Below are positions 1 to 2,216 of a stretch of 2,216 nt of DNA, in pieces; positions within the stretch are counted from its first letter, which is position 1; each line of letters opens with the position of its first letter. Source of the DNA: Dictyostelium discoideum (taxonomy: Eukaryota). The translations under genes were made by a program, and so were the position numbers. A model generated the notes under the pieces. The model made no database searches and was not told where the DNA came from. It saw only the letters and a program-made list of their open reading frames with translations. The stretch covers positions 1 to 2,216 of the forward strand of contig CH709150.1 in the NCBI GenBank assembly GCA_000004695.1. Direction: 5' to 3'.

Positions 1-171
1 TGAATTGGTATTAGATGAGAACATAGGTTCTTTCATGAATCTTGTAAAGGCTAAGGAAATGTTGTTGATTTGATCCTCCATTGATTTCATTCTTAAATCA
101 AAGGATTCAGCACTATTAGAGGCAGAGGTACTACTACTAGAGGCTTCATTATTATTAACAGTGGTAGACAT
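1..171 (-). CDS. 5' partial CDS (N-terminal 57 codons) of an Asn/Ser-rich hypothetical protein. It continues beyond the window start.
   Basis: Reverse complement of 1-171 reads ATG TCT ACC ACT GTT AAT AAT AAT GAA GCC ..., i.e. MSTTVNNNEASSSSTSASNSAESFDLRMKSMEDQINNISLAFTRFMKEPMFSSNTNS, with no stop. An in-frame TAA lies two codons upstream of the ATG (RC of 175-177), so this is the first Met. The context is A-rich (aaaatATGt). Third-position A/T codon bias fits an AT-rich eukaryote. The ORF track misses it because it runs off the window edge. Confidence 0.5.
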   Translation of the reverse strand, partial: MSTTVNNNEASSSSTSASNSAESFDLRMKSMEDQINNISLAFTRFMKEPMFSSNTNS

Positions 172-288
172 ATTTTATTGTTGATATCTAAAATTATAAT
201 ATGAGAAAAATAATAATATTAAAAATTAATAAAGAGAAATAATTATTTGTATAAAATTTGTGTGTGTGTATCTTAAATATATATAGGA
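172..288 (-). promoter_or_regulatory. Putative 5' UTR/promoter region of the 1-171 gene, >85% AT. It lies between the start codon and the TIR element.
   Basis: The call is by position and composition only. TATA-like runs (ttttata, tataat) are present but non-specific in such AT-rich DNA. Confidence 0.25.
259..268. repeat. (TG)5 alternating purine-pyrimidine tract with Z-DNA-forming potential, 20 bp outside the left terminus of the element.
   Basis: tgtgtgtgtg read directly. The only GT microsatellite in the window. Confidence 0.85.
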
Positions 289-390
289 GGAATTCCCAAA
301 TAAAATAAATCAAATTTTTTTAGTTTTTAGTGCCACTATTTATACGTTTTTATTTTCTTAAAAATTTCGCAAAACTCAAAAAAATAAGAG

Positions 391-492
391 TTTTCGACCC
401 TTCACAACTTTGTGCATAGTGTCGGTTCGGAATTTTTCAGTTTTTCGACCTTGCGCAATGATCGCGTCATTGTGCCGGTTCGAAATTTTTAC
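391..492 (+). repeat. Two tandem ~50-bp CpG-rich subrepeats inside TIR-L, with ~70% mutual identity.
   Basis: Unit 1 (391-440) is ttttcgacccttcacaactttgtgcatagtgtcggttcggaatttttcag. Unit 2 (441-492) is tttttcgaccttgcgcaatgatcgcgtcattgtgccggttcgaaatttttac. They share the tttcgacc and gtg.cggttcg.aattttt blocks. Each contains GGTTCG(A/G)A, which resembles the tRNA B-box GGTTCGANTCC in 8 of 11 positions. About 12 CpGs fall in 130 bp, against almost none elsewhere in the AT-rich DNA. Confidence 0.7.
453..475 (+). other. Hairpin-forming palindrome in subrepeat unit 2, with a 9-bp stem (including one G-T/U wobble) and a 5-nt loop.
   Basis: gcgcaatga-tcgcg-tcattgtgc. Pairs are g453-c475, c454-g474, g455-t473, c456-g472, a457-t471, a458-t470, t459-a469, g460-c468 and a461-t467. 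Confidence 0.5.
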
Positions 493-516
493 TTTTCTTT
501 CGAAAATTTTTTATTC

Positions 517-537
517 TTCGAATGTTATAGAACATTC
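517..537. promoter_or_regulatory. Heat-shock-element-like array in TIR-L: GAAnnTTannGAAnnTTC, four contiguous pentamer units of which three are perfect.
   Basis: ttcGAAtgTTataGAAcaTTC. GAA at 520-522, TTa at 525-527, GAA at 530-532 and TTC at 535-537, all at exact 5-bp phasing. It also forms a 7-bp inverted repeat gaatgtt/aacattc. Confidence 0.5.
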
Positions 538-581
538 TAAAAAATTATCTTAAATATTTGGGAAATTCAAATAAATAAATG

Positions 582-932
582 TTATTCATAATATATATAT
601 ATATATGATAATATAAATACGTTTGATAGTGGATAAGTGCTTGAATACTTGATTTGCATCCCATATCTCAACCTACCAGTCATAATTCTTGTAATGAATA
701 GATCATTAACAATATCAGTTTGATTCCTAAGGAGTAACAACTGATTCAACATAGAGCGATTACCGTTTATTGTGGAGAAGGCTAACGGAGGTTTGTGCTT
801 GAACAGATGTGTAAGATAATCCATGAAAACAACTAAAGTAATGTTTGCTGGATTCAAAGAGTTCAAAGTTTGGTCAATACTTCTTGGAATGTTTCCAGTA
901 TTTGAGGAAACATGTGACGATGATAACGACCT
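582..932 (-). CDS. Hypothetical open reading frame of 116 sense codons with no ATG at its 5' end (first Met at codon ~36). Possibly cargo, or a pseudogene fragment.
   Basis: The minus-strand frame is open from the TAA (RC of 933-935) to the TAA (RC of 582-584). It reads RSLSSSHVSSNTGNIPRSIDQTLNSLNPANITLVVFMDYLTHLFKHKPPLAFSTINGNRSMLNQLLLLRNQTDIVNDLFITRIMTGRLRYGMQIKYSSTYPLSNVFILSYIYIYYE. The 'M' in the ORF track at 864-866 is actually a TTG (Leu). GC is ~35-40% and CTG/CCG/CGC/GGG/AGG/CTC codons appear, which differs from the flanking gene usage. The last 7 codons only read through the (AT)n tract. Confidence 0.3.
   Translation of the reverse strand, partial: RSLSSSHVSSNTGNIPRSIDQTLNSLNPANITLVVFMDYLTHLFKHKPPLAFSTINGNRSMLNQLLLLRNQTDIVNDLFITRIMTGRLRYGMQIKYSSTYPLSNVFILSYIYIYYE
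595..617 (+). repeat. Direct repeat copy 1: atatatatatatgataatataaa. This is the inner-end motif of TIR-L.
   Basis: Identical 23-mer at 1140-1162. Both are followed by a[t/a][a/g]cg. Confidence 0.8.
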
Positions 933-1045
933 TTAAAATCACCTTAAAAATCACCTTAAAAATTGCTTAAAAATTTAATTTAAAGAAAATTTTAAAGGCA
1001 TTTTTAAATATCTTAAAAATTACCTTAAAAATTACCTTAAAAATG
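929..1045. repeat. Degenerate 12-bp minisatellite (A/G)(C/T)CTTAAAAAT(C/T), about 7 copies in two blocks, immediately upstream (on the minus strand) of the 582-932 ORF.
   Basis: acctttaaaatc 929-940, accttaaaaatc 941-952, accttaaaaatt 953-964, gcttaaaaattt 965-976, then a 33-bp spacer, then atcttaaaaatt 1010-1021, accttaaaaatt 1022-1033 and accttaaaaatg 1034-1045. Confidence 0.8.
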
Positions 1046-1057
1046 AATTTTTTAAAC

Positions 1058-1118
1058 GCGGCTTTAAATTCAATTTAAATCCAATTTAAATAAACTTTGC
1101 TTTAAATTTGCTTTAAAG
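1058..1118. repeat. Second short-repeat cluster with a TTTAAA core: (g/t)gctttaaa(t/g) x3 and caatttaaat x2.
   Basis: ggctttaaatt 1060-1070, caatttaaat 1071-1080, ccaatttaaat 1081-1091, ttgctttaaat 1097-1107 and ttgctttaaag 1108-1118. Confidence 0.7.
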
Positions 1119-1139
1119 GTGGATTTTTCTTTGCTGTGA

Positions 1140-1162
1140 ATATATATATATGATAATATAAA
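1140..1162 (+). repeat. Direct repeat copy 2: atatatatatatgataatataaa, internal to the element.
   Basis: Exact match to 595-617. Together the two copies bracket module A (619-1139). Confidence 0.8.
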
Positions 1163-1171
1163 AGCGATTAG

Positions 1172-1197
1172 CCTAGGAGATCTAGAAGTGTTTAAAC
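1172..1197. other. Cluster of overlapping 6- and 8-cutter palindromes resembling a cloning linker: AvrII CCTAGG, BglII AGATCT, XbaI TCTAGA, PmeI GTTTAAAC.
   Basis: cctagg 1172-1177, agatct 1178-1183, tctaga 1181-1186 and gtttaaac 1190-1197, all read directly. The cluster sits exactly at the junction between direct-repeat copy 2 and module B. Confidence 0.6.
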
Positions 1198-1780
1198 TTA
1201 TTGGCTGGGTTACTTTATTGATCGGCATCCCCTTTATTATATTCAATAAACAACTACAAAAATTAACCCATTGTTCCGAATAAGTCCATGGGAAGAACTC
1301 ATTTATTACTTGCTTAGACTAAGCCTGCTTATAGAGTATAGGATTTGGCTTGTTGTCTGATCATTATGGGGAAATAACCATTGGCGCTCTATCTGCACCG
1401 CTTATGGGAAGCACCCTATTTTGAGTACTTTTCGACCTACTTCCATCAGACATTGGCATAACCTTATGTGTATCTGTACCAACTAAATCTATCGCTATCG
1501 AAGTTATGTTTGAATTTGATGCGGGTCCAAATTGACCTCCAAACTCCGCAACAGGTAGCGTCAATTCCTACCCCCCTATCAGGATGCTAGGCAGCTTATT
1601 AACCCCAGAACAGAAAAAATCATGAAGGATAACCGAGCGATCCCATACCAGTAGGTTTTGGGCACCACATTCAATGCAAATTGGAGTATAATCGACCTGC
1701 TATTTGTGAAGGCCCCAACGCTTTTCATATTATAAAAAAATCTTACGTTTCTCCCTCAGATGCTAAAGTGAAGCCATAAA
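1198..1780. other. Module B, a ~580-bp non-coding island of roughly 40-50% GC. Candidate structured ncRNA or decayed foreign cargo.
   Basis: Stops are dense in all six frames; the longest ORF is 66 aa on the minus strand. GC was spot-counted at 37% for 1301-1360 and 50% for 1541-1600, against <20% in the flanks. No 3-nt periodicity or internal repeats were recognised. No rRNA, 5S, U6 or tRNA cloverleaf motif was recognised. Confidence 0.35.
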
Positions 1781-1878
1781 TTAAAAATTTAATTTATTAT
1801 ATTAAATATATATATATATATATATTATGAATAACATTTATTTATTAGAATTTCCCAAATATATAAGATAATTTTTTA

Positions 1879-1896
1879 GAATGTTCTAAAACATTC
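1879..1896. promoter_or_regulatory. Heat-shock-element-like array in TIR-R: GAAnnTTCnnaAAnnTTC.
   Basis: GAAtgTTCtaaaacaTTC. GAA at 1879-1881, TTC at 1884-1886, aAA at 1889-1891 and TTC at 1894-1896. This is the mirror copy of the TIR-L site. Confidence 0.5.
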
Positions 1897-1934
1897 GAAG
1901 AAAAAAAAAATTTCGAAAGAAAAGTAAAAAATTT

Positions 1935-1942
1935 CCACGTGG
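1935..1942. promoter_or_regulatory. CCACGTGG palindrome (CACGTG E-/G-box core) within the unique central block of TIR-R. It can pair with downstream ccaagtgg as a hairpin.
   Basis: ccacgtgg(ggcgataattatg)ccaagtgg has 7/8 complementary arms. This 45-bp unit replaces the two subrepeats present in TIR-L. Confidence 0.3.
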
Positions 1943-2057
1943 GGCGATAATTATGCCAAGTGGCAAAAACAGTTTTGTGAAATTTTTAAGAAAATAAAAA
2001 AAATAAAAATAGTGGCACTAAAAACTAAAACAATTTGATATATGGAATTCCAACTAT

Positions 2058-2073
2058 GGGCGGGTGGGATGGG
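2058..2073 (+). other. Canonical G-quadruplex motif GGG-C-GGG-T-GGG-AT-GGG, 7 bp outside the right terminus of the element.
   Basis: gggcgggtgggatggg has four G3 runs with loops of 1, 1 and 2 nt. It is extremely unusual in >80% AT surroundings. Confidence 0.8.
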
Positions 2074-2126
2074 ACTAATATATATAAATTTTTAATATGA
2101 AATATAATTTAATAAATTTTTAATCT

Positions 2127-2155
2127 ATTTTATCATATATATATATATTATGAAA
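2127..2155 (-). repeat. Extra inverted copy of the TIR inner-end motif (ttcataat(at)n gataa) located outside the element in the right flank.
   Basis: 2127-2155 is ttttatcatatatatatatattatgaa. Its reverse complement, ttcataatatatatatatatgataaaa, matches 585-613 (ttcataatatatatatatatatgataatat). It is also a direct repeat of atatatatatattatgaa inside TIR-R (1813-1832). Confidence 0.6.
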
Positions 2156-2216
2156 TTTGGACTACAGTATTTAAGAAACCACCAGATTTTTCACCAATGA
2201 TTCTTTTATCGTAGAA
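2148..2216 (-). CDS. Possible 3' end (last 22 codons plus TAA stop) of a minus-strand gene that enters from beyond the window end.
   Basis: RC of 2151-2216 reads TTC TAC GAT AAA AGA ATC ATT GGT GAA AAA TCT GGT GGT TTC TTA AAT ACT GTA GTC CAA ATT TCA, then TAA (RC of 2148-2150). This is FYDKRIIGEKSGGFLNTVVQIS*. Codon choice (GGT, AGA, TTA) matches the left-flank gene. The open stretch is only 22 codons, so evidence is weak. Confidence 0.3.
   Translation of the reverse strand, partial: FYDKRIIGEKSGGFLNTVVQIS

What the first reader, a model, noticed from the sequence alone, without database searches (positions are those of the whole stretch)
517..537. Heat-shock-element-like GAAnnTTC arrays inside both terminal repeats
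TIR-L has GAAtgTTataGAAcaTTC at 520-537 and TIR-R has GAAtgTTCtaaaacaTTC at 1879-1896. Each has four pentameric nGAAn/nTTCn units in perfect 5-bp phase, three of them exact. That meets the usual definition of a functional HSF-binding HSE (three or more alternating units). Established knowledge: the inverted terminal repeats of the Dictyostelium retroelement DIRS-1 contain heat-shock promoter elements, and DIRS-1 transcription is heat and development inducible. An HSE in a long ITR is therefore a plausible and precedented design. The TIR-L copy lies ~350 bp upstream of the 1-171 gene start, so it could put that gene under stress control. A TATA-like tatttatac sits at 339-347, oriented outward.
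Basis: partly seen in the sequence, partly recalled or inferred. Interest (0 to 1): 0.6.

Follow-up and report, generated by a model that had tools for sequence, protein, structure and literature searches.

The report
Known DIRS-1 heat-shock promoter element
The two heat-shock-like motifs are real, but they are slightly damaged copies of the long-known heat-shock promoter in the terminal repeats of the Dictyostelium retrotransposon DIRS-1, sitting in two different DIRS-1 copies and not at the two ends of a new element.

Summary
In detail: GAATGTTATAGAACATTC at 520-537 and GAATGTTCTAAAACATTC at 1879-1896, each with four in-phase units, three exact. The interpretation needs correcting. The arm at 305-618 is the left ITR of one DIRS-1 copy, followed by a leader and the ORF1/GAG start at 171->1. 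The arm at 1776-2043 is the right ITR of a second copy, preceded by its recombinase ORF end and ICR at 2216->2076. The outer ends of the two ITRs face each other, so 619-1775 is not an element interior. Across 20 ITR copies from discoideum-clade assemblies the consensus is a perfect 18-bp palindrome, GAATGTTCTAGAACATTC, with four exact units. Both window copies are mutated at the conserved G of unit 3, leaving gap-type-like, probably weaker sites. Such arrays are otherwise almost absent: one other in 207.6 kb. The motif lies 176 bp upstream of a conserved TATAAATA. One side result may be new: 8 of 8 D. citrinum and 8 of 8 D. dimigraforme DIRS-1 ITRs lack the HSE. Verdict: already known, low interest.

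The parts
520..537 (.). HSE copy in the left ITR of DIRS-1 copy A. It reads GAATGTTATAGAACATTC, or GAATGTTCTATAACATTC in element orientation. The family consensus is GAATGTTCTAGAACATTC; here the G of unit 3 is T.
1879..1896 (.). HSE copy in the right ITR of DIRS-1 copy B, GAATGTTCTAAAACATTC. The G of unit 3 is A.
305..618 (-). DIRS-1 left ITR of copy A. The outer end is at 618 and the inner end at about 305.
   Evidence: (window 1-618 is 92.8% identical to L004 9547-10170)
337..344 (-). TATA box, TATAAATA on the minus strand, within the conserved block GTATAAATAGTGGCAC (330-345). It lies 176 bp downstream of the HSE and points toward ORF1.
   Evidence: conserved in most copies and across three species
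172..304 (-). Leader between the left ITR and ORF1; it contains the EcoRI site shared by both arms.
1..171 (-). Start of DIRS-1 ORF1 (GAG), annotated as DDB_G0294172 (partial). It runs off the contig.
1776..2043 (-). DIRS-1 right ITR of copy B. The outer end is at 1776 and the inner end at 2043. It carries the right-type outer extension and lacks about 70 bp of the GC-rich middle.
2004..2011 (+). TATA-equivalent of the right ITR. It is degenerate here (TAAAAATA within ATAAAAATAGTGGCAC, 2003-2018) and would direct antisense, E1-type transcription rightward.
   Evidence: direction inferred from PMC3950715
2076..2153 (-). Internal complementary region (ICR) of copy B. L' (2153->2123) is 29/33 complementary to the left-ITR outer end, and R' (2128->2076) is 43/52 complementary to the right-ITR outer end.
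2148..2216 (-). C-terminal 22 codons plus stop codon of the DIRS-1 tyrosine-recombinase ORF of copy B (FYDKRIIGEKSGGFLNTVVQIS*).
   Evidence: (same C-terminus in the composite ORF)
622..929 (-). Internal DIRS-1 fragment (copy C), joined directly to the outer end of copy A's left ITR. It covers part of the RT/RNase H-MT and recombinase ORF region, with about 190 bp deleted.
929..1139 (.). AT-rich 12-bp satellite (ACCTTAAAAATT and related 11-bp units). It recurs beside DIRS copies in other assemblies.
1140..1163 (-). 24-bp fragment of a DIRS-1 left-ITR outer end.
   Evidence: (D6: 595-624 vs 1140-1169, 90%)
1164..1775 (.). Unidentified 612-bp segment, 40.5% GC, not DIRS-1. It lies between outward-facing DIRS-1 termini.

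Best explanation
The motifs are two copies of the heat-shock element built into the inverted terminal repeats (ITRs) of the Dictyostelium discoideum tyrosine-recombinase retrotransposon DIRS-1. In the family consensus it is a perfect 18-bp palindrome, GAATGTTCTAGAACATTC, made of four alternating nGAAn/nTTCn units. It starts about 87 nt in from the outer end of the left ITR and lies about 175 bp upstream of a conserved TATAAATA near the inner end. Inferred mechanism: trimeric heat-shock factor binds the array on stress and boosts initiation at the ITR promoter. Because the repeats are inverted, the left ITR drives the sense mRNA (ORF1/GAG onward). The right ITR drives antisense transcripts, namely the published heat-inducible 900-nt E1 RNA and the long antisense RNA. 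In this window the left-ITR copy (520-537) belongs to a DIRS-1 copy running leftward off the contig. The right-ITR copy (1879-1896) belongs to a different DIRS-1 copy whose body runs off the right end. Both copies carry a substitution at the conserved G of unit 3, so they are gap-type-like and probably weaker than the consensus. Shown here: the sequence identity of the element, its architecture, motif conservation within the discoideum clade, and the rarity of the motif elsewhere. [quoted passage not shown] Inferred: HSF as the binding factor, and reduced activity of these two particular copies.
For: Organism and gene: the ORF at 171->1 is 100% identical to DDB_G0294172 (partial) of D. discoideum AX4, on a 2216-bp contig. 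Architecture: window 1-618 is collinear with the 5' end, and 1776-2216 with the 3' end, of a repeated element. A composite full-length copy is 4831 bp against the published 4814 bp (PMC7192593). The element encodes RVT_1, and RNase H, a Dam-like methyltransferase and Phage_integrase. The ICR has an L' part 30/30 and an R' part 48/54 complementary to the two termini, at composite positions about 4377-4450. [quoted passage not shown] ORF1 starts after the position of about 321 that the literature gives for the end of the left LTR. Motif: 20 of 20 discoideum-clade ITR copies carry it. Twelve have four exact units, two have three contiguous exact units, five (including both window copies) have three non-contiguous exact units, and one has a phase-breaking 1-bp insertion. 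One other such array occurs in 207.6 kb, and the Markov expectation is about 0.023 per window. [quoted passage not shown] 1984 PNAS 81:2660 and Cappello et al. 1984 MCB 4:591). Both LTRs have promoter activity, and heat shock induces the 900-nt antisense E1 transcript (PMC3950715). Gap-type HSEs still function, with moderate induction (PMC4552642).
Against: I could not align the window directly to GenBank M11339 or read the 1984 papers, because neither is held. So the claim that this motif is exactly the published 'heat shock promoter' rests on it being the only HSE-like array in the ITR. Both window copies have lost the most conserved base of one unit, and the right-ITR copy also has a degenerate TATA (ATAAAAATAG). 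These two loci may therefore be poorly inducible or not inducible. The 176-bp distance from HSE to TATA is longer than in classic hsp promoters. The sister-species DIRS-1 ITRs lack the motif yet keep the TATA, so the HSE is not needed for basal ITR promoter function. No expression or binding data were available here.
Confidence: 0.9

Rival explanations
1. One reading: a single, possibly new, TIR-bounded element spanning about 305-2043, with an HSE in each terminal repeat and 607-1809 as its interior. It would impose stress control on a neighbouring host gene at 1-171.
For: A long inverted repeat does bracket 607-1809, and the left arm lies upstream of an ORF.
Against: The ends of the arms that face each other (606-618 and 1776-1810) are the outer termini of DIRS-1 ITRs. 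These are the ends complementary to the ICR. The sequences continuing away from the pair are DIRS-1 leader and ORF1 on the left, and ICR and recombinase ORF on the right. The 'interior' is a patchwork of a DIRS-1 internal fragment, a satellite, a 24-bp ITR-end fragment and 612 bp of unrelated DNA. The 1-171 ORF recurs next to this ITR in many loci as part of the element.
Confidence: 0.02
2. A chance AT-rich palindrome with no regulatory role. GAA/TTC triplets are common in a 29% GC genome and were simply copied along with the repeat.
For: The genome is AT-rich. The two window copies count as one evolutionary event. DIRS-1 copies are young (about 90-95% identical), so conservation within the species says little about selection. 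The sister-species ITRs do without the motif.
Against: A four-unit exact array in perfect phase is very rare. One other near-match occurs in 207.6 kb and none in 107 kb of D. citrinum and D. dimigraforme DIRS clusters. The Markov expectation is about 0.023 per 2.2 kb even for the relaxed definition. In the divergent 'D. cf. discoideum' locus L002 the ITRs are only 70-79% identical to the composite, yet two of three copies keep the exact 18-mer. The literature reports heat-shock promoter activity for this ITR (PMC2685390).
Confidence: 0.05
3. The 18-bp palindrome is primarily a binding or crossover site for the DIRS-1 tyrosine recombinase, or for another dimeric DNA-binding protein, and resembles an HSE only incidentally.
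For: Tyrosine recombinases recognise inverted-repeat sites. In D. citrinum the same slot holds a different imperfect palindrome with the same outer arms (GAATG...CATTC), so palindromy may be what is kept, not the HSE.
Against: The DIRS replication model places recombination at the circle junction formed by the ITR termini and ICR, not about 87 bp inside the ITR (PMC7192593). A perfect palindrome has no asymmetric spacer, unlike typical recombinase core sites. D. dimigraforme DIRS-1 lacks the segment entirely, yet is present in multiple copies with recombinase ORFs. The HSE phase is exact over four units.
Confidence: 0.03

Closest known systems
[quoted passage not shown] 1984 PNAS 81:2660; Cappello et al. 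1984 MCB 4:591)
   Same: Same organism. Inverted, non-identical ITRs of about 317 and 339 bp. An ICR built from the complements of both termini, sitting just inside the right ITR. The GAG / RT-RNase H-methyltransferase / tyrosine recombinase gene set. A length of about 4.8 kb. Nesting inside other DIRS-1 copies. An HSE in both ITRs upstream of a TATA box.
   Different: Nothing at the family level. These two particular copies each carry a point mutation in unit 3 of the HSE. The right ITR here also has a roughly 70-bp internal deletion and a weakened TATA. Direct identity to GenBank M11339 could not be computed here.
Canonical and gap-type heat-shock elements bound by HSF trimers (for example Drosophila hsp70 and yeast HSEs)
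   Same: Alternating nGAAn/nTTCn pentamers in strict 5-bp phase. The family consensus has four exact units. The window copies have two adjacent exact units plus a third after a one-unit gap, like the gap-type architecture nTTCnnGAAn(5 bp)nGAAn (PMC4552642).
   Different: The window copies start with GAA-TTC, not TTC-GAA, so they mirror the gap-type as usually written. The array lies about 176 bp from the TATA box, not within about 100 bp. Binding by Dictyostelium HSF was not tested.
DIRS-1 orthologous families in D. citrinum and D. dimigraforme (assemblies GCA_054859325.1, GCA_054859145.1 and GCA_054859025.1)
   Same: About 78-79% nucleotide identity over most of the element. The same ITR ends, TATA block and gene set.
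   Different: No HSE. D. citrinum ITRs have GAATGCCGAAACGACATTC at the same slot (8 of 8 copies). D. dimigraforme ITRs lack the segment (8 of 8 copies). Neither has even a dimeric GAAnnTTC anywhere in the ITR.

Membership tests
DIRS-1 retrotransposon (D. discoideum) | Host is Dictyostelium discoideum | tested here: met
   the ORF at 171->1 is identical to DDB_G0294172 (partial) of D. discoideum AX4, on a 2216-bp contig.
DIRS-1 retrotransposon (D. discoideum) | Inverted, non-identical terminal repeats of about 320-350 bp, with the right one longer at its outer end | tested here: met
   composite positions 2-317 align to the reverse complement of the right end, which extends 36 bp further outward. 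The window arms are 305-618 and 1776-2043.
DIRS-1 retrotransposon (D. discoideum) | ICR just inside the right ITR: the first part complementary to the left terminus (33 nt), the rest complementary to the right terminus (55 nt) | tested here: met
   in the composite, L' is 30/30 and R' is 48/54, at about 4377-4450. In the window, L' is 29/33 and R' is 43/52, at 2153->2076. The order and position match PMC7192593.
DIRS-1 retrotransposon (D. discoideum) | Coding set: GAG-like ORF1 after the left ITR; RT, RNase H and methyltransferase; a tyrosine recombinase in place of a DDE integrase | tested here: met
   RVT_1 and Phage_integrase are in the called genes. One search finds RNase H, Dam methyltransferase (PF05869) and Phage_integrase in the composite ORFs. 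ORF1 itself has no Pfam match.
DIRS-1 retrotransposon (D. discoideum) | Full length about 4814 bp | tested here: met
   the composite of L004 and L005 is 4831 bp. No single intact copy was recovered in the sampled loci.
DIRS-1 retrotransposon (D. discoideum) | Nucleotide identity to the reference sequence GenBank M11339 | not testable with these tools
   No eukaryotic nucleotide database is available here, the 1984-85 papers are not held, and a string search of the literature found nothing.
Heat-shock element (HSF-binding site) | At least three contiguous alternating nGAAn/nTTCn units in 5-bp phase | tested here: not met
   For the two window copies, one search finds three exact units but not contiguous (pattern 1,2,_,4 in element orientation). 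For the family consensus the feature is met: four exact units in 12 of 20 copies.
Heat-shock element (HSF-binding site) | Located upstream of a core promoter (TATA/TSS) in the transcribed direction | tested here: met
   the HSE is at composite ITR position 87 and the TATA block at 276. In the window, the HSE at 520-537 and the TATAAATA at 344->337 both lie upstream of the ORF1 ATG at 171.
Heat-shock element (HSF-binding site) | Binding by HSF and heat-inducible transcription dependent on the motif | not testable with these tools
   Known only from the literature for the DIRS-1 ITR as a whole (PMC2685390 citing Zuker 1984 and Cappello 1984; PMC3950715 for heat-induced E1). Nothing is known for these two mutated copies.
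   the ICR-complementary outer termini are at 606-618 and 1776-1810, so they face each other. The element bodies extend outward past positions 1 and 2216.

The most novel reading that the evidence does not exclude
The HSE palindrome may be a discoideum-clade-specific feature of the DIRS-1 ITR. Stress inducibility of this centromeric retrotransposon would then be a recent innovation, or a recent loss in the sister species, and not an ancestral property of the family. In the sampled loci every discoideum-clade ITR has the motif. All 8 D. citrinum and all 8 D. dimigraforme ITRs lack any HSE, even though the flanks are 88-90% identical and the TATA box is conserved. No paper I could reach mentions this.
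Probability: 0.35. Interest if true: 0.4.

Novelty: already known. Interest (0 to 1): 0.15.

Why it matters
For the finding as given, it matters mainly as a correction. The window is not a new stress-responsive TIR element. It is a scrap of a DIRS-1 cluster, the kind of sequence that forms D. discoideum centromeres, and its HSE has been textbook knowledge since 1984. The analysis adds two modest points. First, the family consensus is a perfect four-unit palindrome, and individual genomic copies, including both in this window, have decayed to gap-type-like sites. Only a subset of the roughly 200-300 DIRS-1 fragments would therefore be expected to respond fully to HSF. Second, the motif is absent from the DIRS-1 ITRs sampled in D. 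citrinum and D. dimigraforme. That offers a natural experiment on whether heat or stress inducibility affects the activity, silencing or expansion of a centromeric retrotransposon.

Tried and rejected
1. I tried to read the primary papers (Cohen 1984 PMC369062, Zuker 1984 PMC345129, Glöckner 2001 PMC311061). None is held. Supplements of PMC3950715 and PMC7192593, which hold primer tables and the DIRS-1 sequence figure, are not held either.

2. A full-text search for six sequence strings from the ITR and the ORF1 start found no papers.

3. A Pfam scan of the window ORFs gave nothing significant.

4. AX4 reference copies (P0010, P0030) could not be fetched; they are 'not on record'.

5. The 612-bp segment 1164-1775 was tested against 205 kb of DIRS-rich loci by blastn and tblastx and against the protein database. 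It was also tested against Rfam and tRNA models, plasmids, E. coli genomes and phages. There were no matches, so a vector, host or phage contaminant is unlikely, and the segment remains unidentified.

6. The only Rfam hit in the window is a sub-threshold CRISPR-DR50 match in the AT-rich satellite (E = 0.75, 24.6 bits against a gathering score of 47). I dismissed it as chance.

7. I considered whether four hits at the same G of unit 3 among 20 copies indicate a mutational hotspot. By my own rough estimate this is not significant once possible shared ancestry of the two A variants is allowed for, so I did not pursue it.

Full report
**Observation**

- 520-537 reads GAATGTTATAGAACATTC.
- 1879-1896 reads GAATGTTCTAAAACATTC.

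Each has four GAA/TTC triplets in perfect 5-bp phase, three exact and one with a single mismatch. They are the only such arrays in the window. A first-order Markov null gives about 0.023 per 2216 bp.

The two sites are not independent. They lie in the arms of one long inverted repeat (483-606 against 1810-1933, 95% complementary, and 305-367 against 1981-2043).

Two details need correcting. The three exact units are not contiguous in either copy, and there is no run of three exact units anywhere in the window. The TATA-like string is at 337-345, not 339-347.

**What the window is**

The ORF at 171->1 is 100% identical to 'hypothetical protein DDB_G0294172, partial' of Dictyostelium discoideum AX4, on a contig of exactly 2216 bp. 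The window is therefore a whole unplaced AX4 contig.

Paralogues of this ORF occur in several newer Dictyostelium assemblies. I fetched loci around them. These loci are full of genes with RVT_1, RNase H and Phage_integrase domains. One locus lies at the end of a 4.9-Mb contig, as expected for the telocentric DIRS-1 clusters described in the literature (PMC3950715; bioRxiv 10.1101/2025.08.01.668227).

**Identity with DIRS-1**

BLAST of the window against these loci shows three things:
- Window 1-618 recurs as one unit. It is 92.8% identical to L004 9547-10170, where it is followed by RT and recombinase genes.
- Window 1776-2216 is collinear with the 3' end of the same element.
- Window 622-929 matches internal coding sequence of that element.

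A composite full-length copy built from L004 and L005 is 4831 bp, against the published 4814 bp (PMC7192593). Its features match the published DIRS-1 map:
- Its termini are inverted repeats: positions 2-317 align to the reverse complement of the right end, which extends 36 bp further outward.
- Its ORFs carry RNase H, a Dam-like methyltransferase and a tyrosine recombinase. RVT_1 is recorded for the called genes.
- Just inside the right repeat lies an ICR. Its first part is 30/30 complementary to the left terminus and its second part 48/54 complementary to the right terminus. [quoted passage not shown]

Every defining feature of DIRS-1 that I could test is met. The one thing I could not do is align to GenBank M11339, because no eukaryotic nucleotide database is available here and the 1984-85 papers are not held.

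**Anatomy of the window**

All DIRS-1 pieces lie on the minus strand. Reading the minus strand from 2216 down to 1:
- 2216->2148: the last 22 codons and stop of the recombinase ORF of copy B.
- 2153->2076: the ICR of copy B (L' 29/33, R' 43/52).
- 2043->1776: the right ITR of copy B.
- 1775->1164: 612 bp of unidentified, relatively GC-rich DNA.
- 1163->1140: a 24-bp left-ITR end fragment.
- 1139->929: a 12-bp satellite.
- 929->622: an internally deleted DIRS-1 coding fragment.
- 618->305: the left ITR of copy A.
- 304->172: the leader.
- 171->1: the start of ORF1 (GAG).

The two 'TIRs' are therefore the right ITR of one copy and the left ITR of the next. Their outer (ICR-complementary) ends face each other. 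The stretch between them is not an element interior. This is the nested arrangement expected from DIRS-1's known preference for inserting into DIRS-1 (PMC5633606, citing Cappello et al. 1984).

**The motif across copies**

I located 20 ITR copies that cover the motif in assemblies labelled D. discoideum or D. cf. discoideum, counting the two in the window. The consensus is a perfect 18-bp palindrome, GAATGTTCTAGAACATTC, with four exact alternating units.

| HSE state | Copies (of 20) |
|---|---|
| Four exact units | 12 |
| Three contiguous exact units | 2 |
| Three non-contiguous exact units (includes both window copies) | 5 |
| Phase broken by a 1-bp insertion | 1 |

In element orientation both window copies are mutated at the same base, the G of unit 3 (T in the left ITR, A in the right ITR). 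Guanines are the most conserved HSE positions. Arrays missing one unit ('gap-type') still work, but give moderate induction (PMC4552642). The window copies are therefore probably weakened sites; this is an inference.

Outside the ITR slot, only one comparable array occurs in 207.6 kb of sampled sequence. The motif is therefore far from a compositional accident.

It starts at position 87 of the left ITR. A TATA block, GTATAAATAGTGGCAC, lies at 276 and is kept in most copies. In the window the TATAAATA is at 344->337 on the minus strand, 176 bp downstream of the HSE and pointing at ORF1. The right ITR of the window has a degenerate version of this block, ATAAAAATAG.

**Mechanism**

The literature states that the DIRS-1 ITRs contain an active heat-shock promoter (PMC2685390, citing Zuker et al. 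1984 and Cappello et al. 1984). It also states the following:
- The left LTR drives the 4.5-kb sense mRNA.
- The TSS leaves little of the left LTR in the transcript.
- The right LTR has promoter activity.
- Heat shock induces a 900-nt antisense transcript, E1 (PMC3950715, PMC7192593).

The TATA position found here, about 35-40 nt from the inner end of the ITR, fits that TSS. Since the palindrome is the only HSE-like array in the ITR, it is almost certainly the published element. HSF as the binding protein is inferred from general knowledge of HSEs. I found no held paper on Dictyostelium HSF.

**Cross-species side result**

A search with the DIRS-1 recombinase found close relatives in D. citrinum and D. 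dimigraforme. I fetched five loci from these species. Their DIRS-1 copies are about 78-79% identical to the D. discoideum composite.

The ITRs align well. The 60 bp upstream of the HSE slot are 88-90% identical, and the TATA block is conserved. The slot itself differs:
- All 8 D. citrinum copies have GAATGCCGAAACGACATTC or close variants, which is not an HSE.
- All 8 D. dimigraforme copies lack the segment.
- Neither species' ITR contains even one GAAnnTTC dimer.
- No HSE-like array occurs anywhere in 107 kb of their DIRS clusters.

By contrast, the divergent 'D. cf. discoideum' locus L002 has ITRs only 70-79% identical to the composite, yet keeps the exact 18-mer in two of three copies.

The HSE therefore looks specific to the discoideum clade. 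Without further outgroups I cannot say whether it was gained there or lost in the other two species. The sample is 16 ITRs from three assemblies. The genome papers I could read do not mention it.

**Verdict**

It is an HSE in a long ITR upstream of an ORF, but the element is DIRS-1 itself. The two repeats belong to different copies. The 'gene' is DIRS-1 ORF1. Both copies are degenerate versions of the canonical element.
- Novelty: already known. Interest is low. The only possibly new item is the absence of the HSE from sister-species DIRS-1 ITRs.

Noticed in passing
L006 7845-8010, L007 7441-7597, L008 16623-16812, L009 16267-16449, L010 8105-8290 and other ITR copies in L006-L010: DIRS-1 ITRs of D. 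citrinum (8 of 8 copies) and D. dimigraforme (8 of 8 copies) lack the HSE. D. citrinum has GAATGCCGAAACGACATTC at the same slot, and D. dimigraforme lacks the segment. The flanks are 88-90% identical to D. discoideum and the TATA block is conserved. The HSE therefore appears specific to the discoideum clade.
   Followed up: partly
window 1164-1775: A 612-bp segment with 40.5% GC, against 29% for the whole window. It is bounded by outward-facing DIRS-1 termini and opens with a dense cluster of restriction sites (CCTAGG, AGATCT/TCTAGA, GTTTAAAC at about 1173-1199). It has no long ORF and no match in 205 kb of DIRS-rich loci, the protein database, Rfam, plasmids, E. coli genomes or phages. Its identity is unknown.
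   Followed up: partly
window 2076-2153: A canonical DIRS-1 internal complementary region. L' (2153->2123) is 29/33 complementary to the left-ITR terminus. R' (2128->2076) is 43/52 complementary to the right-ITR terminus. It overlaps the stop codon of the recombinase ORF (2150-2148).
   Followed up: yes
window 929-1139: An AT-rich satellite of 12-bp units (ACCTTAAAAATT, about 10 copies) followed by 11-bp units. Related arrays lie next to DIRS copies in L002 and L005 (D. cf. discoideum), so it may be a repeat associated with DIRS clusters or centromeres.
   Followed up: partly
window 368-482 versus 1934-1980: The GC-rich middle of the ITR differs between the two arms. The left ITR has two tandem units of about 51 bp, each with an internal palindrome (for example GCGCAATGATCGCGTCATTGTGC at 453-475). 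The right ITR has only about 47 bp, with CCACGTGG instead. The number of units also varies between copies and between species.
   Followed up: no
window 530 and 1889; L001 4732; L003 9164: The G of HSE unit 3 is substituted in 4 of 20 copies (to T, A, C and A), more often than any other position of the 18-mer. This may be a mutational hotspot or shared ancestry of a subfamily. My rough estimate did not find it significant.
   Followed up: no
window 619-622 and 868-869: Junctions of the nested fragments. The outer end of copy A's left ITR abuts DIRS-1 recombinase-ORF sequence directly, and the internal fragment carries a deletion of about 190 bp relative to full-length copies. This is consistent with DIRS-1 inserting into, or recombining with, DIRS-1.
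   Followed up: partly
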